39,959 bases of DNA from a virus (taxonomy: Duplodnaviria; Caudoviricetes): positions 1-39,959 of the IMG/VR virus record IMGVR_UViG_3300005298_000015; one strand, 5' to 3'. This document shows, in pieces, positions 4,543 through 35,889 of this stretch; the stretch's first letter is position 1, and every line of letters begins with the position of its first letter. Both the position numbers and the translations under genes were made by a program. The notes below the pieces were generated by a model. The model did not search any database. It worked only from the letters and a program-made list of their open reading frames with translations, and was not told where the DNA came from.

Positions 4543-4547
4543 AAAAG

Positions 4548-4590
4548 AAGGGGGAAGCGGGGTCATATCCCTTGCTTCCCCTTTTGTTTT
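4548..4590 (+). terminator. intrinsic terminator (possibly bidirectional)
   Basis: AAGGGGGAAGCGGGG...CCCTTGCTTCCCCTTTT stem with T-rich tail and upstream A run. Confidence 0.75.
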
Positions 4591-5003: not shown

Positions 5004-5366
5004 ATGAACAACCCAACACCCAAAATAACCTTTATACAAACAAACAAAACTGAAGACGAATTTTTGTTTGACGAAATTCGATTCTCTTATTTAGGTCAAC
5101 CCTACATCCTCAGAGTAGGCTTTACCAAAATCCCCAAAGAAGACCTTAATGCTAACATTGTTATAGACCTTCTTTTTATCGAAGAAACCGATGTTGATGA
5201 AGACGACTTTTATTACTATATTCCCTTTATTATGCTTCTGCGTTCGCACATTATGATCGAATACTACGACCAGCAAAAAACCTTTAAAAAACTGTTCGAG
5301 GTTTTTTTGAATTATTGGCCTGAGTTAGACGAAATCTGCAAACAAACACAATATTTTTATTACTAA
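5004..5366 (+). CDS. hypothetical protein, paralog family A
   Basis: GGAGGTG RBS; FDEIRFSYLGQPYILRVGFTKIP / YYIPFIMLL motifs. Confidence 0.85.
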   Translation: MNNPTPKITFIQTNKTEDEFLFDEIRFSYLGQPYILRVGFTKIPKEDLNANIVIDLLFIEETDVDEDDFYYYIPFIMLLRSHIMIEYYDQQKTFKKLFEVFLNYWPELDEICKQTQYFYY

Positions 5367-5400: not shown

Positions 5401-6135
5401 ATGGAAAAAGTATTGTACGAAGTCACCCTTAGCTTCACCTCTCCCGTTTTAGGACTTAACCCCGCAGATCAATTTTCATTGCCTTTTGTTTTGAGTAAAT
5501 CAAAAGAGGAACTCGAAAAACTTGAGAAAGCCATTGAAAAAGAAACTGATGAGGAAAAGAAGGCTATTTTAATCGAAAAAGCTGATCGGTTGCGTGCCGA
5601 AATAGAGGAACGTGAAACTGAGTTATTGTCCGAGCTCGAGACCAGAAAGACTATCTTTGCGAAAGACGCAGAGGGGCGACTTGGGTTTTATCACTATCAA
5701 ATTAAGGGCTACATGAAAGAAGTAGCCCATCTTTTCTTCTCCGAAAAACGAGGGAAAGCTTCTCTTAAAACTTTGATCAGCCGCTATGTGGACATATATC
5801 CCTCACACACCGATCTGAAAGCCTCGTGGGATAAAACCTTAGTTTGTCCTTTTAAACGAAACGGCGATTACATTTACGTTCCCGACGGCGAAATAAGCAG
5901 GCCCCTTCGGTCTTTTTCTCACAGCCAGTACATTGTGACGATCTCTCAATCTGATGTCTTGTATCCTCCCCTTGAGCTTGATTTTAAGGTCTTGGTTCTA
6001 AACAGTTATTTAACCGACAACGACATAGTGGATATATTTAAACAAGGCGAGAACTGGGGGATGTCCCAGTGGAGAACTGCAAGGTACGGGCGTTTTGTGC
6101 TTAAGAAAGTGAGCAAAATAAAGGTAAAAGAATAA
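5401..6135 (+). CDS. solo Cas7/RAMP-like RNA-binding protein
   Basis: N-terminal YEVTLSFTSPVLG strand, YQIKGYMKE (RAMP S.KG..R-like helix), C-terminal G-rich loop GENWGMSQWRTARYGRF; acidic coiled insertion at about aa 33-82. Confidence 0.7.
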   Translation: MEKVLYEVTLSFTSPVLGLNPADQFSLPFVLSKSKEELEKLEKAIEKETDEEKKAILIEKADRLRAEIEERETELLSELETRKTIFAKDAEGRLGFYHYQIKGYMKEVAHLFFSEKRGKASLKTLISRYVDIYPSHTDLKASWDKTLVCPFKRNGDYIYVPDGEISRPLRSFSHSQYIVTISQSDVLYPPLELDFKVLVLNSYLTDNDIVDIFKQGENWGMSQWRTARYGRFVLKKVSKIKVKE

Positions 6136-6139
6136 AAGC

Positions 6140-7045
6140 GAAGGATACGACTTTTACAGAGAAGAAGGGAAGGGTTAAGAGAGGAATAGGAAGAGGGAGA
6201 GGAATAGGAGGAGGGAGAGGAATAAAAAAAGAGAAGGGGGGAGGAGCATTAGGTGAAAAGAATAGCAAAATTGGAATGGATTGGATGGGAAGAGAAGTGG
6301 AATTGCCGGAAAGAGTAAAATGGTGCGGAATAGATTTGATCAAAGAAGAATTAGATGAGACTTGAATGGATGCGATGCGAAGAGGATAAGATCGAAATGG
6401 ATCGAAATAAAATCGGATTTGATTGAAGCAGAAAGGAAAAGGATGGGAATCAATCGGAAAAGGAGGCGATAGGAGGCAAACAGAAGAGATGAGATTGGTA
6501 AAACTAACTAAAATATGAAATGGAGGCGATACGAGAGGAAGTGGAAAGGCAGCAATCAGATTAGAACGGTAGAAACAGAATAGAAATGAGATGCGGTAGA
6601 AATGATAACAAAACAACGGATGACAAACGAAATTGTTTTTAAGGATGGGAAAGGATATGTGGTGAACGGAATAGGAAAAGGAAAGGAAAGGAGTGGAGAG
6701 TAGTTGAAGAAAAAGGAGAAAAGAAAAACAGAAGAAAGGAGGAGGAGAAAAGAGTAGAAGTGAGGGGAGTTGGCAGGATAGGGAAGTAATATAAACTGAT
6801 CGGCTCGACCGGATTGAATATGGAATGGGAGAAGAATAGATTAGACCGGACCAGAACTGAAAAGGGAAGGGAGGGGATGGAAGAAGATAGGATCAGCCTG
6901 GATCAGAGCTGAAAAGAAAGAAAGATGAGAAAAGGAAAAGTACTGAGGGGAGTTAACTGGAGAGGAGGTGAGGCGAGGGGAGGGGATTTGAGAGGGACCT
7001 GTGTTGAGAAGCTTTGAAATGAATCGAATCTGAATCGAATAATAA
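6140..7045 (+). ncRNA. putative non-coding guide array: purine-rich 5-nt periodic GAN-NN repeats
   Basis: No + strand ORF of 60 aa or more in the track; in-register pentamer runs such as 6354 GATGA GACTT GAATG GATGC GATGC GAAGA, 6834 GAATA GATTA GACCG GACCA GAACT GAAAA, 6945 GAGGG GAGTT AACTG GAGAG GAGGT GAGGC GAGGG GAGGG GATTT GAGAG. Periodicity is seen; RNA function is inferred. Confidence 0.65.
6179..6224 (+). repeat. 18-nt tandem repeat, 2.5 copies
   Basis: GAGAGGAATAGGAAGAGG / GAGAGGAATAGGAGGAGG / GAGAGGAATA. Confidence 0.85.
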
Positions 7046-7050
7046 AAGGG

Positions 7051-7079
7051 TTGACTTTTAAACGTTTTTGTGTTATAGA
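7051..7079 (+). promoter_or_regulatory. promoter of the replication gene
   Basis: TTGACT(7051-7056)-N17-TATAGA(7074-7079) with TG extension. Confidence 0.75.
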
Positions 7080-7099
7080 ATGCGGAAAGGAAGCAATAA

Positions 7100-9781
7100 A
7101 TGAAATATTACAGACAGCCACCCAAGAAGAGAACCATTGATCCCCTTCTTGAGGAATACTTAAAGCTATACCAAAAGTACAATTTTAAAGTCATTCCTTT
7201 ATCTGTTAATTCAAAAGTTCCAATTAAAGACTTACCTTTACAAGATATCTATAACGGGGAATCCTATGTTTACAACTGGGATTTTCATGAGGGCAATATC
7301 GGTATTGTAACTGGCTTTGAAAACTTAGCTGTGATTGACTGTGACAACCAAGAAACAGCCCAATGGCTTGAAGAGCAACCCGAATATCAACCTACTGTTG
7401 TAGTCCGAACCCGCAGAGGTTTTCATTATTACTTTTTTATCATTGATGCCACAAAACACGACTATTACACTACAGGGGTAAAAGATAAAGAAGGCAAATT
7501 TAAAATCGACTTCTGTTTCGGAAAAAAATATGTAGTAGCCCCACCATCGGAAATACGGGAAAACGGCAATGTTTACCAATATCGTTTTATACAAAACTTT
7601 GATCTTGCCAGCCGCAGATTGGATATTGCTATATTAACCCTTTCAGCCTATCACAACCTAATCAAAAAAGCCCGAGAAAAAGCAGGCCGAACCCTGATAG
7701 CTGATGAAGTAGCCGAAAAAGTAAAGTTTTATCAAAACTCACATACGGATGTAGGGGCTCTTAATTGTTTCCTTGAGATTATTGAAATTGTCAAAAGATA
7801 TTACACCGAAGGTAATAGACAATCTTTTTGGCTTGGATTAGCAGGCATAGGTCGTAAATTAGGTTTAAAACAAGAACAGGTACTGGATATTTTAAGGCGT
7901 GAGTTATACGAAGGACTTAATGACACCGATCCATGGTCTCAGCGCTTAAGTGCCATTACCGAGACTTTCGAAAAAGACGTTTCCCAAATTGCTGGTATTT
8001 CAATCATTACCCAACTGGTTGATCCAAGTACAGCCGAACACATAAATACCCTTCTGAAGGATTATTCCCGTAAGTATCAGATTCTCCAAAAGGGTGAAGA
8101 CGTTGTTTTAACCGAAGAAGCGCTGGTTCAGGCGGTAAAAATCGTGAAGAAGTGGGGCAAAACTTTTGCTTTGATTGAAGGTGACTGGTACGTTTTGACC
8201 AATAAAGGATACTTAAAGCCCGTTTGCGCCGGCTTCTGGGTACTTGAGACCTGCTATGATCCTAACCTTCAAAAAACCGTTTTAATGATTAAGGATGCTA
8301 AAAACTACCGAGAAGGACAGGTAGGCCTTGATTATGATGAAATCAAAGAATTTTTGGCCCGTCCTATCTTAGATGTAGCGAATTTTAAATATCTCATCTA
8401 CGCTTTACTTGATGAAAAAAAAGAAAAACAAATATTCCACCATACTGGCTGGATTATTTTACCCAACAAAACAAGGATATTTTTACATCCGCTGAATAAC
8501 GAAACATTAGGAAGGTATAACTTAGCTTGCCAGCTACATGCTTCAAAAAAACTTGATCGGATGTTTTGGTATGCTAATTCTGAGGAACAGCATAAATTAG
8601 TCAGGAAGCTTTTACACGAAGGCAATTTGCTTGGCGTTAAGATAGTACTTGCGTGTGCTTCGCTGTTCCTTGATGAGATTACAAAAGGCTTTTCGGTATT
8701 TGACATAGGTCCACGGGAAGTAGGAAAAACGCTAACCTCACAATTTGTGGTTTCTCTTTTTTACGACGCTACAGCCCCCCTGACCACTAAAGCTACAGCG
8801 ACGGGTTTAGAACTTGTTATACAACGCTTTAAGAATTTGCCGATTTTACTTGATGAATTGGCGCTTATTTCCGATCGGAGCGTTGAAGAGTTGGTGTTTT
8901 TGGTTGCATCAGGGCGTGGCAAAACAAGGGGGACAAAAACCTTAGAAATTGACTTTAGGGAACAACATTCGGTTATATTCTGCACAGGTGAAAAGGAGCT
9001 GAAGTTTGACAGGTTTGGGGCTTTTCGAAGGACAGTTTACATCGAACCTACTTTATGGAACGACTATACAATTTACTACCGACCCCGTGAAATAGCCTCA
9101 GCGATAAGCAACATGCAAGGGGTCGGCTTTGACTGGATCAAATACTTAGAAACACACGAATTTAACGATAGTATTTCACTTGAAAACTTTGAAGGTTTTC
9201 CTTTTATAAAAGCGGTTGAAAAATCATTAGCCTTCCTCAAAAAATACTACAACCTGAATGATGCCGAGATGGAGCGTTTGTATTCCAAGATGTGTGAGGT
9301 ATTTTCGGTTCAAGCCGAGAAAAAAATGATTGACCTTGAAGACTATATAATCAACAGCTTTACGGAATTTATACTTCAGAATTTGCCTCGTTTTCTCGTC
9401 TATTCAAACGACGTTCTTACCCGTGGCCCAGCCTCTGCGGTAGGGAACCTATACGGGGTGTTTTTCGTTGACCAAAACAAATTGTTCCTTGTGTCCAAAG
9501 CTCTGAGCGATTTTTGCGAGAACAGCAAAATGAACGAAAAAACGGTCAAGAAAACCTTAGCCGAAAAAGACATCCTGATCCCCCAGATGAGGATCCAAAG
9601 GGGCGAAAAATCCTACAGGCAGATAAAACGCATTAAATATGCCAACACTTCGCTCGTCCTTTCAGGCTACCTTTTTGACCTCAACAAACTCGGCGCTGAA
9701 TTCACCGATCAACTACTTTCCGAATTAACAAGCATGGAAGGCGAAAAATTCAACGTAGGGTTAGATGATTTACCCTTTTAA
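7100..9781 (+). CDS. bifunctional primase-polymerase fused to a DUF927-like P-loop helicase
   Basis: Prim-pol motifs NIGIVTG, VIDCD, T.RG.HYYF, YVVAPPS; Walker A GPREVGKT and Walker B ILLDE; GRGKTRG; acidic DDLPF tail. Confidence 0.85.
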   Translation: MKYYRQPPKKRTIDPLLEEYLKLYQKYNFKVIPLSVNSKVPIKDLPLQDIYNGESYVYNWDFHEGNIGIVTGFENLAVIDCDNQETAQWLEEQPEYQPTVVVRTRRGFHYYFFIIDATKHDYYTTGVKDKEGKFKIDFCFGKKYVVAPPSEIRENGNVYQYRFIQNFDLASRRLDIAILTLSAYHNLIKKAREKAGRTLIADEVAEKVKFYQNSHTDVGALNCFLEIIEIVKRYYTEGNRQSFWLGLAGIGRKLGLKQEQVLDILRRELYEGLNDTDPWSQRLSAITETFEKDVSQIAGISIITQLVDPSTAEHINTLLKDYSRKYQILQKGEDVVLTEEALVQAVKIVKKWGKTFALIEGDWYVLTNKGYLKPVCAGFWVLETCYDPNLQKTVLMIKDAKNYREGQVGLDYDEIKEFLARPILDVANFKYLIYALLDEKKEKQIFHHTGWIILPNKTRIFLHPLNNETLGRYNLACQLHASKKLDRMFWYANSEEQHKLVRKLLHEGNLLGVKIVLACASLFLDEITKGFSVFDIGPREVGKTLTSQFVVSLFYDATAPLTTKATATGLELVIQRFKNLPILLDELALISDRSVEELVFLVASGRGKTRGTKTLEIDFREQHSVIFCTGEKELKFDRFGAFRRTVYIEPTLWNDYTIYYRPREIASAISNMQGVGFDWIKYLETHEFNDSISLENFEGFPFIKAVEKSLAFLKKYYNLNDAEMERLYSKMCEVFSVQAEKKMIDLEDYIINSFTEFILQNLPRFLVYSNDVLTRGPASAVGNLYGVFFVDQNKLFLVSKALSDFCENSKMNEKTVKKTLAEKDILIPQMRIQRGEKSYRQIKRIKYANTSLVLSGYLFDLNKLGAEFTDQLLSELTSMEGEKFNVGLDDLPF

Positions 9782-10492: not shown

Positions 10493-10711
10493 ATGAGGAA
10501 GCAGTATATTGAAGTTGGAGGAGATTTTATAGCTATACCAAACATCAGCTCAGTGACATTTTTAAAGAATGAGAAAACAAATACTTGGAGTGTGAGATTT
10601 GGGTTAGGAAAGTATTATTTGGATTACGAACTGATGCCTGATGAAGCTGAAAAATTACGTAAATTCCTAAGGGATACGGTAATCTTAAGCATAGACAAAA
10701 TTGAAGAATAG
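10493..10711 (+). CDS. hypothetical protein
   Basis: 72-aa ORF with AAGGAGGTG RBS. Confidence 0.75.
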   Translation: MRKQYIEVGGDFIAIPNISSVTFLKNEKTNTWSVRFGLGKYYLDYELMPDEAEKLRKFLRDTVILSIDKIEE

Positions 10712-10721
10712 GAGGTGCCAA

Positions 10722-11294
10722 ATGAAAACATATTGTCTGCGTTTAGACAAAGATCTTTATAAAAAGGTAATACAATATATTGCTTCACTGAAAGGAAGCA
10801 TGAGTGGTTTAACCTACATGGCATTACAACGCTTATTTGAAGCATACAAAGATGAATTTCCAGACATTTACGAGGTTTTTTACAATCGCAAAACTGCAAC
10901 TAAGGCTGACAAATCTAAACCATTTCGGATCGGGGTTATGCTGGACGATCATGTTTTAGACGCCTTAGAGATGCTGTCTGAAAAGGTTTGCGTTTCCAAA
11001 AACGAATTAATCAGGAATGCATTAAAGAGCTATTTTGATGATGTTCCTATCAATTTTTTAAGTCCCACTAATATTGTTGAAGTGCCCGAATTCGCAGTGG
11101 ACCAAAAGGGCGTTCAAATTGCCAAAAACATGACCAAGGAAAAACACATAAACTTACACTGCAGCGAGGATCTTCATACAAAGTTCAAAGAAATTGCTCA
11201 AAAGTATAACTTGACCATTTCAGATCTAATGAGGATTTTAATTATGCAGTTTATAAAACAAGAGGAGGAAAAAGAAGCTTTACAAAAACAATAA
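10722..11294 (+). CDS. multi-domain ribbon-helix-helix (CopG/Arc-like) DNA-binding protein
   Basis: ATG 10722 after GGAGGTG; three RHH-like units: YCLRLDKDLY, IGVMLDDHVLDALE..S..ELIRNAL, INLHCSEDLH..TISDLMR. Confidence 0.75.
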   Translation: MKTYCLRLDKDLYKKVIQYIASLKGSMSGLTYMALQRLFEAYKDEFPDIYEVFYNRKTATKADKSKPFRIGVMLDDHVLDALEMLSEKVCVSKNELIRNALKSYFDDVPINFLSPTNIVEVPEFAVDQKGVQIAKNMTKEKHINLHCSEDLHTKFKEIAQKYNLTISDLMRILIMQFIKQEEEKEALQKQ

Positions 11295-11309: not shown

Positions 11310-12299
11310 ATGTTGATTGAAAAAATTAAACAAATCAAAAAAGGAAGTGTAGCGCCTGTTCATTCAAACAGGTGCTCAACAATAGGCCATGACTGTCTCA
11401 GGTATTTGGTTTACGAGCGTACTATGTGGCATGTAAAGCCTGAGCCGAGTTTTGATCTTCTGAATCGTTTTGATATAGGAAAGATTTTAGAAAGGCAAAC
11501 TATAATTGACCTACAGCAAGCAGGTGTTGATGTGATCTTGCAGCAACAGTCATATTACTTGAAGGAGTACGAGTTGAGCGGAAAAATTGATGGTAAAGTA
11601 GTTGTAGATGGTAAAACCTACATCATAGAGATAAAATCTGTTGATTCTTATTCGTTCCATGTTTTTCGTTCAGTCGAAGATTTTTTGAACACCGACAAAG
11701 TATGGCATCGTGGGTGGTATCATCAGTTGAATATGTATTTGCATATGGCCACTTCTGAAGGTGAGAAAGTAGAAGGCGGGATTATTATTTTGCGTTCGCT
11801 TGATGGAAAGTGGAAAGAGATTCCTATGTCTTATAATCCCCAAAAGGCCCAAGAAGTACTTCAGAAGTGTTTGATGATTAACGAATACGTTAAAAAAGAA
11901 GAAGTTCCAGAGCCAATATACAAGTCTAATCCCGAAAAAATCAAAATTTGCTTGGAATGTGCATACAAAACCTTCTGTTTGACCGAAATGCCGAGCATGG
12001 AGCATGTTATTTTTGAAGAAGCTAACCAAGAAATGATTGAGAAAATCAAGCGCCTGAAGGACTTAGAAGCTTACAAAAAAGAATACGAAGCCTTAGAAGA
12101 AGAGATCAAATCTGCTTTCAAACCAGACAAGCAACTTATGAAAGAAATGTTAAATAAAAATCAAGATTTTAAGGCTTTTGTGTTAGGTGATTATGTTGTA
12201 AAAATGAAGCTTTATTGGCAAACAAGATATGATATTCCTGAAGAGATCAAGAAAGAATATGCCAAAAAAGAGCCAGCTTGCAGGATAACTATTGAATAG
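11310..12299 (+). CDS. Cas4-like PD-(D/E)XK exonuclease
   Basis: LSGKIDG, IIEIKS, YHQLNMYL motifs; N-terminal Cys plus C-terminal CLECAYKTFC (Fe-S-type arrangement). Confidence 0.8.
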   Translation: MLIEKIKQIKKGSVAPVHSNRCSTIGHDCLRYLVYERTMWHVKPEPSFDLLNRFDIGKILERQTIIDLQQAGVDVILQQQSYYLKEYELSGKIDGKVVVDGKTYIIEIKSVDSYSFHVFRSVEDFLNTDKVWHRGWYHQLNMYLHMATSEGEKVEGGIIILRSLDGKWKEIPMSYNPQKAQEVLQKCLMINEYVKKEEVPEPIYKSNPEKIKICLECAYKTFCLTEMPSMEHVIFEEANQEMIEKIKRLKDLEAYKKEYEALEEEIKSAFKPDKQLMKEMLNKNQDFKAFVLGDYVVKMKLYWQTRYDIPEEIKKEYAKKEPACRITIE

Positions 12300-24688: not shown

Positions 24689-25254
24689 AAAGCTCCTTTA
24701 GCAGTATAAGACATACACAAAAGTTTATATTCGTTTTCAAAATACGCCTTCAAAGCGTACTGCAGATCGTTCTCGGCTAATCTTACACAAATTTGGAGAG
24801 CCACTAATTCTAAAACAGTCTCAGGTAAATAAGTTTCCACATCTTCTAATGTAGTTAGTTCAGGTAAAGAAGGGACATAAACAACCCTTAATTTTTCCTC
24901 ATCAATAGTATATTGCTGCGGTAATAAATAAACTCTGTTAGGGGATTTTAAAACATAGGCTAAAGGTTTGGAATTGAGTTTAAAAGGTTCAAATAAACTC
25001 GGTTTGCGAACCAAAAGATATTGATACACATCACCTATTAAATAAACCCGCCTTACGGCCACAAAATTATTGGAAAGCTGAACATAAGCGGGTTTATTGC
25101 TTAAATCAAAATCCTCTTGGATTGTAAGGTCTAAGTCTAAAGCTACTTTGTTTCGGCTGAAGTTAAGCGTCCGATAAATAAAAGGAGCCTCATCCCAAGC
25201 AACAGGATACCTATCAAAGGCCCTTTGAAGATAATTGGCCGCAGTTACAGGCAC
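24685..25254 (-). CDS. head-tail adaptor
   Basis: 189 aa; KP.AY....RVYL.P...LRVVY..LP pattern, downstream of the capsid gene. Confidence 0.6.
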   Translation of the reverse strand: MPVTAANYLQRAFDRYPVAWDEAPFIYRTLNFSRNKVALDLDLTIQEDFDLSNKPAYVQLSNNFVAVRRVYLIGDVYQYLLVRKPSLFEPFKLNSKPLAYVLKSPNRVYLLPQQYTIDEEKLRVVYVPSLPELTTLEDVETYLPETVLELVALQICVRLAENDLQYALKAYFENEYKLLCMSYTAKGAF

Positions 25255-25256
25255 AT

Positions 25257-25532
25257 TTATTCACTCCTTCTCCTACTTTTAATTTTGCCTTCTGCAATAA
25301 GACTTTGATGTATTTTTAAGAAATCTTCATAACTTATATTGTTGCCTAAACTTAGTAAACGGTTGTAGCATTCTTTTAACTGCGCTTCGGTTGTTAAAGT
25401 AAAACCAAAAAACAGCTCTGCTATCCAGTCTGGTACTGTGTATTCAGAGTCGGGTGGTATTTCTATCCATTCTTTTTCCCACTTCATTTTCACTTTGATA
25501 TAGGAATTAGTGTGGTTGTAAAGAACTGCCAT
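25257..25532 (-). CDS. hypothetical protein
   Basis: 91-aa ORF with AGGAGGT RBS. Confidence 0.7.
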   Translation of the reverse strand: MAVLYNHTNSYIKVKMKWEKEWIEIPPDSEYTVPDWIAELFFGFTLTTEAQLKECYNRLLSLGNNISYEDFLKIHQSLIAEGKIKSRRRSE

Positions 25533-33348: not shown

Positions 33349-34410
33349 TTAAGGGTATATGTTTGTAAGTTGCCAAAAATCGTTTAAAATATAACTTAAA
33401 TACTCAAAAATTTCTCCTGTTCCTATATAAGCACTATTATTTATTACAAAAACAGTAGCGTCTTCTATATCGTATTCTAATTTTAATAGTGCATGCCAAA
33501 TATTGTTATAAGGATCATAAAACCAAATATCACGCAAACCTCCAGCTATATATCCATAATTTCCTATGTTAAATCCTACTGGTCTAAATCTTGCTGAGGC
33601 TGGAAACATGTATATTTGAGTCCAAGTATTGTTTGAAGGATCATATTTCCAAAAGTCTCTTAAAAGTTTAGAAGGAGTTTCGCCCATTCCTACATAACTA
33701 TATTGTTTTATAGAAAAAGCTGCTGCTCCTCTTCTTGCTTCGCCCCCTAAATCACTCACTTGTGTCCAAGTGTTATTTGAAGGGTCGTAACGATAAAACC
33801 ATTTACGAGTATAGTGATTTAAATCTGCACCAGTTCCTACATAAGCATAATTGTTTATAGTAAAAGCAACAGCTAAATATATTTGAATAGGAAAATCTGT
33901 TATTTGAGTCCAAATATTATTTAAAGGATCATAACGCCAAAAATCCTGAGAAGGACCCCATCTATCTTCTTCATCAACCCATCCTGTTCCTACATAAGCA
34001 TATTCACCTATAACAAAAGCAACAGCCCAATACCTTCTTATAGGATGATCAGCTATCTGAGTCCAAACATTTATAGAAGGGTCGTAGCGATAAAAATCTT
34101 TACAAGCTTCTTCGCTCTCTCCTGTTCCAACATAACCATAGTTATTTATAGCAAAAGAAACAGCTCTATACCTTTCAGCGCCTATAAATTTTGAAATCTT
34201 TTTTAATCTTGCTCCTGAAACGGAAGGTTTACCCCAAAAGACCCATTTATTACCATCCCATATGACGTAATTTTTAAAATCAGTATCATAAACAATCTCA
34301 TAATCATTAGGTGATAATTGACGTCTTTCCTGAGTAGAAAGGAATTTAACTGTTTTTGCTTTTATTAAAGACCTTACATAATTAAATTTTTCTTCAAAAT
34401 TGGTGCTCAT
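33349..34410 (-). CDS. Kelch-repeat beta-propeller protein
   Basis: About six repeats of R..A.AF.I...YVGTG...DF.RYDP..N.WTQI. Confidence 0.9.
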   Translation of the reverse strand: MSTNFEEKFNYVRSLIKAKTVKFLSTQERRQLSPNDYEIVYDTDFKNYVIWDGNKWVFWGKPSVSGARLKKISKFIGAERYRAVSFAINNYGYVGTGESEEACKDFYRYDPSINVWTQIADHPIRRYWAVAFVIGEYAYVGTGWVDEEDRWGPSQDFWRYDPLNNIWTQITDFPIQIYLAVAFTINNYAYVGTGADLNHYTRKWFYRYDPSNNTWTQVSDLGGEARRGAAAFSIKQYSYVGMGETPSKLLRDFWKYDPSNNTWTQIYMFPASARFRPVGFNIGNYGYIAGGLRDIWFYDPYNNIWHALLKLEYDIEDATVFVINNSAYIGTGEIFEYLSYILNDFWQLTNIYP

Positions 34411-34419
34411 TTTGCTCCT

Positions 34420-35889
34420 TTACTGATAAACAATAGTTATTTTAAGAAGATATAAATGGGTGTCTTCAACTTCTTCGTTATCCCATGCACCTGTATGCAC
34501 AATACCTCCCCAATAAACATTATACTCATCAATAGGCCACACAACTCCCCCTGCGGCAGTGTAAGGTATTTCAAAAGCTACTTCCCATTGATTGGTGTTA
34601 GGATCATAACTTAAGAAATTACGAGGATGTTCATATTTAGCATATTGATAACCTCTTGTGCCTCCACCTATGTAGCCACGATTTTCTAAAGTAAAACCTA
34701 CCGCAAGAAACCTACCTACATTTTCAGCATTAGGAATTCGAGTCCAAGTGTTTGTAGAAGGATCATATTTATAAAAATCGCTCAAATTATAAAAAGGACT
34801 ATATTCATTACGAGAAGCTTTGCCAGCTCCAACATATGCATAATCGCCAATCACAAAAGAAGTGGCCCAAAATCTTCCTGCTACTACTACATCAGGTAAA
34901 TCAGCTACTTGTGTCCAAGTATTAGTATTAGGATCGTAACGATAAAAATCTTTAAAGTAGTGGCTATACGAATCATCTCCCGTTCCGACATATGCATGAT
35001 TATTAATTACAAAAGCTACTGCTCCTGCTCTTGGATATCCAGGTAAATCTGCTATTTGAGTCCAGGTATTTGTATTAGGATCATAACGCCAAAAATCTTG
35101 AGAACAATTATAAGATGAAAACAATCCTGTTCCTGCATATCCATATCCTTGTAAACTAAAGCCAACTAAACCAGCTCTCTCGCCTCCACCAAAGTCTGCT
35201 ATTTGAGTCCACACTTTTTCAACAAAATTAAACTTATAAAATTCTTTATAAATTGTCCATACTTGGAAATATTGGCTATACAATCCTCCAGCTCCTATAT
35301 AGCCATTTCCGTTTATAATAAAGCCTACTGGCAATTCCAAAAGTGATGGGGTGAAGGTTACTCTTTCTACTCTCGATCCATACGTTGACATACCAGTTAA
35401 AAAATCCCATTTTTCACCATTCCAAATTGCAAAACATTTACAATCAGTATCATAAACTACCAATCCTTCGTTTTTATAAGCCAAAGCACGTCTTTCTTCT
35501 GCTGAAGCGACTATAAAGGAGAAAGGTTCCTTTTTTAATATAACCACCCAAAAGCAAGCGTTATCAAAATATACTTGATCGCCTTTTTTAACCGATGTTA
35601 AATCAACTTTTATAGTAAACCATAAAGTAGTTCCTGAAAAAATACCAATTTGGTTAAACTCTCCCCAGTCACTTAAAGCACGAGGGAAAGATATAGGCTG
35701 TTTGTTGGTAATATAAAAAGCATCTTCATCTTCATACAATTCTAAATGAAAAGAAGGGGTTATCGGTATTCTTCGATAATTGCTTCCAGAAAGTTCTACT
35801 CCGTCTTTTAAAAGCCCAATGTCGGTTATCGAGTTAAAAATTAAGTCAACAAATCCTTTTTTAACTATATCCCACAACATTGTGCTCAT
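34420..35889 (-). CDS. Kelch-repeat protein with N-terminal tail-fibre-like domain
   Basis: Kelch repeats as above; N-terminal ELSGSNY.R...N...I.FP.A..DWG.....GIF. Confidence 0.88.
   Translation of the reverse strand: MSTMLWDIVKKGFVDLIFNSITDIGLLKDGVELSGSNYRRIPITPSFHLELYEDEDAFYITNKQPISFPRALSDWGEFNQIGIFSGTTLWFTIKVDLTSVKKGDQVYFDNACFWVVILKKEPFSFIVASAEERRALAYKNEGLVVYDTDCKCFAIWNGEKWDFLTGMSTYGSRVERVTFTPSLLELPVGFIINGNGYIGAGGLYSQYFQVWTIYKEFYKFNFVEKVWTQIADFGGGERAGLVGFSLQGYGYAGTGLFSSYNCSQDFWRYDPNTNTWTQIADLPGYPRAGAVAFVINNHAYVGTGDDSYSHYFKDFYRYDPNTNTWTQVADLPDVVVAGRFWATSFVIGDYAYVGAGKASRNEYSPFYNLSDFYKYDPSTNTWTRIPNAENVGRFLAVGFTLENRGYIGGGTRGYQYAKYEHPRNFLSYDPNTNQWEVAFEIPYTAAGGVVWPIDEYNVYWGGIVHTGAWDNEEVEDTHLYLLKITIVYQ

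What the first reader, a model, noticed from the sequence alone, without database searches (positions are those of the whole stretch)
5401..7045. Candidate RNA-guided system: solo Cas7/RAMP-like gene followed by a ~900-nt pentamer-periodic (GAN-NN) non-coding array
Seen: the 244-aa protein shows RAMP/Cas7 hallmarks (first strand ending SPVLG, QIKG..KE helix, terminal G..WG.SQWR...YGRF loop), with no recognisable cas5, cas6, cas8 or cas10 in the window. Directly after its stop and up to the next promoter (7051) lies the longest non-coding stretch between genes in a compact genome. It is strongly purine-rich and made of 5-nt units with near-constant GA(N) and a variable dinucleotide; for example 9 of 10 consecutive pentamers at 6945-6994 start with GA. 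Established: Cas7 proteins polymerise on guide RNA with a fixed nucleotide step. Inference: each subunit binds one pentamer, the constant part acts as scaffold and the variable NN positions spell a non-contiguous target code, giving a programmable system distinct from CRISPR. From memory this resembles the recently reported viral VIPR systems (GGY/NN units), but the scaffold here is GAN, so it may be a new variant. Competing phages are plausible targets.
Basis: partly seen in the sequence, partly recalled or inferred. Interest (0 to 1): 0.95.

Follow-up and report, generated by a model that had tools for sequence, protein, structure and literature searches.

The report
Hot-spring phage VIPR with NGA guides
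A hot-spring virus carries a CRISPR-related protein followed by a 900-base array of five-letter repeats, likely a variant of the recently described VIPR RNA-guided gene silencers whose predicted guides put an adenine where the two solved examples exclude it; no target was found.

Summary
The 244-aa ORF folds as a lone Cas7-like RAMP (pLDDT 94; Cmr1/Csm3/Cas7 Z 12.6-13.1) and its family profile matches a SUSP1-type Vipr (hhalign E 2e-6). The 905-nt tract after it has period 5 (z 9.8). All 11 first-found homologue loci, 4 Hydrogenobaculum-phage-1-like phages and 36 of 49 more distant loci carry such arrays. So this is a VIPR system (Yoon et al. 2026).

Two corrections. The unit is most likely NGA-NN, not GAN-NN, because relatives show NGY or NG(T/A) in the same register. 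The array is also punctuated: blocks of 5-7 pentamers plus one extra base (about 31 nt), mostly starting GGA, resembling the published 'staggered' arrays.

What is new is A at scaffold position 3 (89%). The SUSP1 and P. fulva structures exclude purines there. The hot-spring clade carries Trp at one residue of that pocket.

No target rose above chance in about 1 Mb of hot-spring virus DNA or in three IMG/VR pattern scans. Expression and binding are untested. Non-canonical scaffolds are already in print, and this scan found others before on other DNA (including GCA and punctuated NGY arrays). Verdict: new variant of a known kind.

The parts
5401..6135 (+). vipr gene: lone RAMP (Cas7-like) protein, 244 aa, with a long helical hairpin (res. 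26-79), thumb hairpin (163-187) and G-loop G216-ENWGMSQWRTARYG-R231
6136..7040 (+). predicted vrRNA array: 171 pentamer units N-G-A-N-N (124 are xGA, 14 xGY, 5 GGY), broken into blocks by single extra bases
6322..6352 (+). example six-unit block (ggt-GC ... aga-AT + T); a related strain carries about 213 extra bases at 6325, near its start
6448..6522 (+). array segment replaced by 23 other NGA-phased bases in related strains (runs X3, X4, X5)
7051..7079 (+). sigma70-like promoter (TTGACT-17-TATAGA) bounding the array and probably driving the next gene; similar sites follow the arrays of several relatives
   Evidence: relatives (read by eye)
7100..9781 (+). primase-polymerase/DUF927 helicase, the next gene (context, not part of the system)
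5004..5366 (+). 120-aa ORF upstream, no family hit; not shown to be a vap

Best explanation
This is a phage VIPR locus, a lone Cas7-like Vipr gene followed by a punctuated array of NGA-NN pentamers, which is likely transcribed and cut into guides of about six units that Vipr would coat, one subunit per pentamer, to bind and silence DNA of a rival mobile element by the skip-one-base code. Shown here: the fold, kinship to Vipr, array periodicity, block structure, conservation of the gene-array pair across the clade, and block-scale gain and loss between strains. Inferred from SUSP1: filament assembly, NN pairing with a 1-nt skip, and repression without cutting (no nuclease partner is recognisable). 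Inferred from comparison: G2 is still read (G-loop W224/R225 = SUSP1 W178/R179). Position 1 is free because the G1 contacts are replaced (D177 to Q223; H17 to L19, aligned by eye). The pyrimidine pocket at position 3 is remodelled in the hot-spring clade (C173 to W219, E71 to Y99) so that A is accepted and C excluded. Inferred: the extra base before GGA marks guide boundaries, as in the published staggered arrays.
For: Fold: AF2 with 140 sequences, pLDDT 94, pTM 0.85; Foldseek top hits are all Csm3/Cas7/Cmr, best E 3e-7; VIA Z 13.1, 12.7, 12.6 and 12.6 over 137-163 residues. Vipr kinship: family profile vs the Vipr of phage ekra (identical to PDB 36PP over the 42 residues searched) gives P 89%, E 2.2e-6 over 101 columns; 36PP itself scores E 0.0096. 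Arrays follow the gene in 11 of 11 loci (eight are close ACSV-type kin), in 4 of 4 HP1-like phages and in 36 of 49 wider loci (only 1.2 kb downstream searched). Register: HP1-like arrays are NG(T 51-71%, A 29-47%); the wider clade is NGY, with A at most 46%; blocks open with GGC/GGT in 335 of 400 wider blocks and with GGA in 62 of 102 NGA blocks. In homologous segments, substitution rates are x .043, G .038, A .062, n1 .076, n2 .122 (pairs not independent). Blocks: 104 of 199 runs are 5-7 units vs 20+-2.8% in 100 simulations with random slips; pooled lag 31 is .37 vs lag 30 .16; G follows a slip in 137 of 204 cases vs 241 of 837 inside blocks. A six-unit footprint has precedent in SUSP1 vrRNA4.
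Against: No target found. Exact or near-exact skip-code matches in about 1 Mb (both strands) of hot-spring virus DNA stay at shuffle level for both registers, for skips 0-3 and for a three-base code. Wobble-phase block hits are 11 vs 11.2+-2.9. IMG/VR scans gave 0 hits, 5 hits without extension, and about 650 chance hits (69, 109/113, 114/115). The one long exact match in any array was in the other register: L011 vs AJCSV, 20 of 20, P about 0.007 for that condition, 8 conditions tested. Strain SNPs do not separate the registers (n1 4, n2 7, x 4, G 2, A 2, slip 1, of 20). L009 reached NGA (90% A) without W219, and HP1-like phages have W219 but prefer T, so the residue link is one clade-level event, not a code. 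The counterpart of thumb R138 is unresolved: hhalign puts D185 there, while R167 is the invariant arginine (138 of 140). No vap and no structured 3' tail are recognisable.
Confidence: 0.75

Rival explanations
1. Still VIPR, but the A at position 3 is drift: the clade's pocket takes any of A, C or T, and purine loading plus array homogenisation in this lineage produced NGA, so the protein is not orthogonal to NGY guides.
For: Several mesophile relatives already carry 15-46% A there; C is scarce at every array position (10-12% at the free positions); L009 has NGA with an ordinary GLGQWR loop.
Against: HP1-like phages, also from hot springs, keep T at 51-71% (99), and L175, sister to the hot-spring clade, has under 1% A, whereas the window and ACSV group hold T at 4-7%; the clade has a distinct GxxWGxSxWR loop (129).
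Confidence: 0.3
2. Guides are long and span several blocks; the extra base is a structural bulge once per helical turn (5-6 subunits per turn in SUSP1) rather than a processing site.
For: The block mode of 6 units equals the six-subunit turn of the binary filament; a 12-base code is short; first and last NN of blocks are biased to AA/AT (entropy 3.1-3.2 vs 3.8-3.9 bits), leaving even less code.
Against: The VIPR paper describes staggered arrays as individual vrRNAs offset by 1 nt (18); searches across slips also found nothing.
Confidence: 0.25
3. One reading: the scaffold is GAN and the code is the last two bases of GAN-NN.
For: The three non-GA positions have equal entropy (1.87-1.88 bits); one 20-of-20 match of the L011 array to an AJCSV intergenic site (66, 130); mild excess for this register at skip 1 (61 vs 49+-5, one of 16 tests).
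Against: Relatives fix Y directly after G and open blocks with GGY; the base before GA varies less than the two after it; no array-genome pair converges (0 of 266 at p<=0.01 for this register at skip 1); its dinucleotides fit generic all-frame bias as well as any codon phase.
Confidence: 0.07
4. The tract is a purine-rich microsatellite or DNA element with no guide role.
For: Low complexity, internal duplications, no target found.
Against: It sits directly behind the same gene across the clade while the letters change, and the slips are regularly spaced.
Confidence: 0.03

Closest known systems
VIPR systems with alternative NNNNG/YNNNG repeats and staggered arrays (bioRxiv 10.64898/2026.04.26.720920, text, methods and legends of figs S17-S18)
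   Same: Viral lone RAMP, adjacent pentamer array, only the second G fixed, 1-nt phase steps between units of the array.
   Different: Position 3 is A in 89% of units; NGA is not named in the text I could read. The type cannot be assigned because Fig. 5A, fig. S17 and tables S2-S3 were not visible. ACSV and HP1 proteins are in GenBank and may be among the paper's 2,664 Viprs.
SUSP1 / P. fulva type II VIPR (PDB 36PP; bioRxiv 10.64898/2026.04.26.720927, 10.64898/2026.10.15.759431)
   Same: Homologous G-loop and C-terminal half; G-loop W/R pair kept.
   Different: GGY in only 5 of 171 units; D177 to Q, C173 to W; no pseudoknot tail and no recognisable vap1; a continuous 905-nt array instead of four ~100-nt RNAs; 244 vs 195 aa with a long helical hairpin. 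GGY>GGA is among the substitutions listed for the SUSP1 assay in which GGY perturbation abolished silencing.
Non-canonical VIPR clusters of the Evo-PIN/COMPASS survey (bioRxiv 10.64898/2026.10.21.760802)
   Same: Vipr-like fold beside non-GGY pentamers (GAC, CAC, WGT, TGH named; 21 clusters).
   Different: NGA/GGA is not named in its main text; fig. S10 was not visible.
Type III CRISPR Csm3/Cmr1 and type VII Cas7
   Same: RAMP fold (Z 12.6-13.1).
   Different: No other cas effector genes, no repeat-spacer array; 8-14% identity.

Membership tests
VIPR | RAMP protein with RRM core, thumb and G-loop, single domain | tested here: met
VIPR | Homology to described Vipr | tested here: met
   hhalign P 89%, E 2.2e-6, 101 columns, C-terminal half only; PDB 36PP E 0.0096 (39). 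Csm4 and type VII Cas7 score better on the short G-loop stretch; no tree against CRISPR RAMPs was built.
VIPR | Viral, non-CRISPR context | tested here: met
   virus record; terminase, capsid, tail and endolysin hits; no Rfam hit; relatives ACSV and HP1
VIPR | Flanking tandem pentamers, fixed scaffold plus variable NN (GGY/NN or related consensus) | tested here: met
   fits the paper's NNNNG class
VIPR | vap accessory gene (typical, not universal) | tested here: inconclusive
   upstream ORFs have no family hit and differ among relatives (28, by eye); no systematic synteny test
VIPR | vrRNA expressed and bound by Vipr | not testable with these tools
   no RNA run listed
VIPR | 1-nt-skip DNA targets in rival elements | tested here: inconclusive
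   no excess over shuffles; host genomes and prophages could not be searched
VIPR type II (SUSP1) | GGY scaffold | tested here: not met
   5 of 171 units
VIPR type II (SUSP1) | Conserved structured 3' tail after each guide | tested here: not met
   0 inverted repeats and no recurring tail in 6100-7100 (26); continuous units
Class 1 CRISPR-Cas | Several cas genes and a repeat-spacer array | tested here: not met
   other intergenic gaps are at most 576 nt (130); the record may be incomplete

The most novel reading that the evidence does not exclude
A heat-stable Vipr whose remodelled pocket reads NGA and rejects GGY/NGC guides, working with no accessory protein and no RNA tail. It would cut or cap a long transcript at the extra base to give ~31-nt six-unit guides, in an array that gains and swaps whole blocks between strains: an orthogonal, minimal programmable DNA binder and a place to watch VIPR guides being acquired.
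Probability: 0.3. Interest if true: 0.75.

Novelty: new variant of a known kind. Interest (0 to 1): 0.5.

Why it matters
VIPR is a months-old, PAM-free, programmable DNA-binding system. The two solved examples say the third scaffold base must be a pyrimidine; this lineage uses adenine almost throughout, with a graded series of relatives (NGY, NG(T/A), NGA) that makes the recognition rule directly testable. A version from hot-spring phages could be thermostable and not cross-react with GGY guides. The punctuated array, with strain-level block swaps, bears on open questions of how tail-less guides are processed and how new guides arise.

Tried and rejected
Pfam, PHROGs and NCBIfam do not name the protein; the ESM Atlas gives only unnamed viral clusters. 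A first model from 6 sequences was poor (pLDDT 62) and was replaced. No relative was found in GTDB genomes. An attempt to reach Aquificota genomes through an Aquifex plasmid gene found nothing, so hosts, prophages and satellites were never searched. No plasmid match for a relative.

Target searches that led nowhere: and collection scans 69, 109, 114. The pattern may have crossed a guide boundary, and one search covered only 12 of 64 parts of the collection. Other arrays as targets gave 23 vs 15.7+-3.5 five-unit hits, judged weak. In one search the wider clade gave z 2.8-3.0 for the NGA/NGY register at skip 1, but skip 3 and one skip-0 test reached the same level among 96 tests. A lead only: window block 6322-6352 matches the primase-helicase gene of HP1-like record G006 12 of 12 (antisense, skip on wobble) and G007 11 of 12, within chance.

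An abundant 39.8-kb contig seen in two runs was not found in IMG/VR. No RNA holder listed. Hammerhead-like motifs suspected by eye in relatives got no Rfam support. The antisense ORF 6101-6616 was rejected as a low-complexity shadow of the array (by inspection). The codon-position fit of NN dinucleotides favours the NGA register only weakly. No complex prediction was sent.

Full report
Observation. The window is a linear virus record of 39,959 bases with terminase, major head, tail-fibre, endolysin and primase-helicase genes. Its terminase is 67% identical to that of Hydrogenobaculum phage 1, and the runs that hold at least half of the searched stretch are hot-spring metagenomes. An Aquificota host is therefore likely but not shown. 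ORF 5401-6135 and the purine-rich gap behind it are as described. Period 5 is far above dinucleotide shuffles (z 9.8), and the 9-of-10 example is exact.

The protein. Pfam, PHROGs and NCBIfam give no name. A profile of six relatives found 740 cluster representatives at E<=0.001; 140 sequences were aligned. AlphaFold2 gave a confident model (pLDDT 94). Its best matches are Csm3, type VII Cas7 and Cmr RAMPs by Foldseek (E 3e-7) and VIA-align (Z 13.1-12.6). These fold libraries did not list a Vipr; the Foldseek one ends on 8 April 2026. By sequence the profile hits SUSP1 Vipr (36PP) at E 0.0096, behind three G-loop-only hits to Csm4 and one to Cas7. It aligns to the near-identical Vipr of phage ekra at P 89%, E 2.2e-6 over the C-terminal 101 columns. 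Named relatives are Aquificae Conch Spring virus (44%) and Hydrogenobaculum phage 1 (36%).

The array and its register. Segmentation gives 171 units in 6136-7040, with G in 82% and A in 89% at two adjacent positions. The other three positions are equally variable, so the window alone cannot say whether the triplet is NGA or GAN. Relatives decide it. All 11 loci first fetched have the same GA arrays (A 81-93%). Four HP1-like phages have NG(T/A). In 36 of 49 more distant loci an array was found within 1.2 kb downstream; these are NGY with A at most 46%. The other 13 scored below the cut-off, and their upstream sides were not searched. A therefore stands at the canonical Y3 position. On a FastTree of 49 proteins, the window, the ACSV group and the HP1 group form one clade (support 1.0). 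It is marked by H98 and W219 and by near absence of C at position 3. L009 gained NGA separately without W219. In SUSP1, G1 is read by H17 and D177, G2 by R138 and W178, and Y3 sits in a pocket (E71, M72, C173, T175, R179) that 'sterically excludes purines'. Here D177 is Q223, W178/R179 are kept, C173 is W219 (alignment) and E71/M72 are Y99/Q100. The R138 counterpart is unresolved. Substitution patterns between homologous array segments lean the same way. Strain SNPs are neutral between the registers.

Blocks. Single extra bases interrupt the phase every 5-7 units: 104 of 199 runs in ten NGA arrays, against 20+-2.8% for random slips. Pooled autocorrelation peaks at 26, 31 and 36, and the unit after a slip starts with G in 137 of 204 cases. 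The same punctuation runs through the wider clade. Related strains differ by an 18-nt duplication, about 213 extra bases at 6325, and a 73-for-23 base replacement at 6448-6522. X4 and X5 look like one data set. No inverted repeat or Rfam family lies in the array.

Targets. None established. Both registers, skips 0-3, a three-base code and two ways of treating slips were tested against about 1 Mb (both strands) of hot-spring virus loci, later 2.6 Mb with the wider clade. All stayed near shuffle level. Three exact-pattern scans of IMG/VR gave nothing beyond chance. One 20-of-20 match favours the rival register (L011 vs AJCSV; P about 0.007 in one of eight conditions) but has no companion hits. 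Six-unit guides carry only 12 bases, and host chromosomes with their prophages and satellites, the usual VIPR targets, could not be searched. The blank is therefore weak.

Mechanism. By analogy with SUSP1, Vipr would polymerise on block-sized guides, one subunit per pentamer. It would hold N-G-A, present NN, pair with duplex DNA skipping every third base, and repress a rival element. Every step in that sentence is inferred.

Literature seen. 10.64898/2026.04.26.720920: whole text; the supplement PDF was searched by terms only and the PMC text by passages; figures, tables S1-S3 and data files were not seen, and they may already list this clade and its logo. 10.64898/2026.04.26.720927: part 1 of 6 and passages. 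10.64898/2026.10.15.759431: parts 1-2 of 8 and passages. 10.64898/2026.10.21.760802: passages and section 4.22; fig. S10 not seen. 10.1101/2020.02.27.968263: passages. Two searches and the term look-ups did not show NGA or GGA as a natural scaffold. The first paper does allow NNNNG, and the fourth names GAC, CAC, WGT and TGH.

Verdict. A real VIPR locus, not type II, with a derived NGA scaffold and a punctuated array, from a hot-spring phage. New variant of a known kind; interest 0.5.

Noticed in passing
L011:4066-4140: A tRNA-like element (Rfam tRNA 30.1 bits, gathering 29) sits in the middle of a 1.2-kb NGA array; it could act as a processing site, like the published ribozyme-interspersed arrays.
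   Followed up: no
L011:4522 vs L022 (AJCSV) minus strand 1963: Exact 20-of-20 skip-one match in the GAN-NN register to an intergenic site upstream of gene 1556-1849; borderline after multiple testing.
   Followed up: partly
L003:9135 block vs L006, L007, L013, L024: A whole six-unit block matches a conserved stretch of a 550-580 codon ORF in ACSV-type phages, antisense and wobble-aligned; the total of such hits is at chance.
   Followed up: partly
L014 (NC_028651.1 14735-15453) and L013 (BK013345.1 about 25080-25488): Two published phage genomes, Hydrogenobaculum phage 1 and ACSV, carry unannotated vipr genes (YP_009186880.1, DAD54615.1) with NG(T/A) and NGA arrays.
   Followed up: yes
L009:10001-10677: A distant Vipr (27%) with an ordinary GLGQWR loop has a 90% NGA array, apparently an independent origin.
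   Followed up: partly
window 33349-35889: Two adjacent Kelch/beta-propeller proteins in the tail region, unusual for a phage.
   Followed up: no
window 11310-12299: Cas4-like exonuclease, also annotated in HP1; no link to the array was tested.
   Followed up: no
L001-L008 downstream of the array; L010/L011 upstream of vipr: A small ORF that looks like a tandem ribbon-helix-helix protein by eye neighbours the locus in these relatives; a possible vap, not adjacent in the window (an RHH gene lies at 10701-11294).
   Followed up: no
runs X1/X2: A 39,799-base contig at depth about 400 co-occurs with this phage (depth 11); a possible competitor, not retrieved.
   Followed up: partly
window 4547-4585: Strong terminator-like hairpin (16 pairs) upstream of the gene run that ends in vipr.
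   Followed up: no
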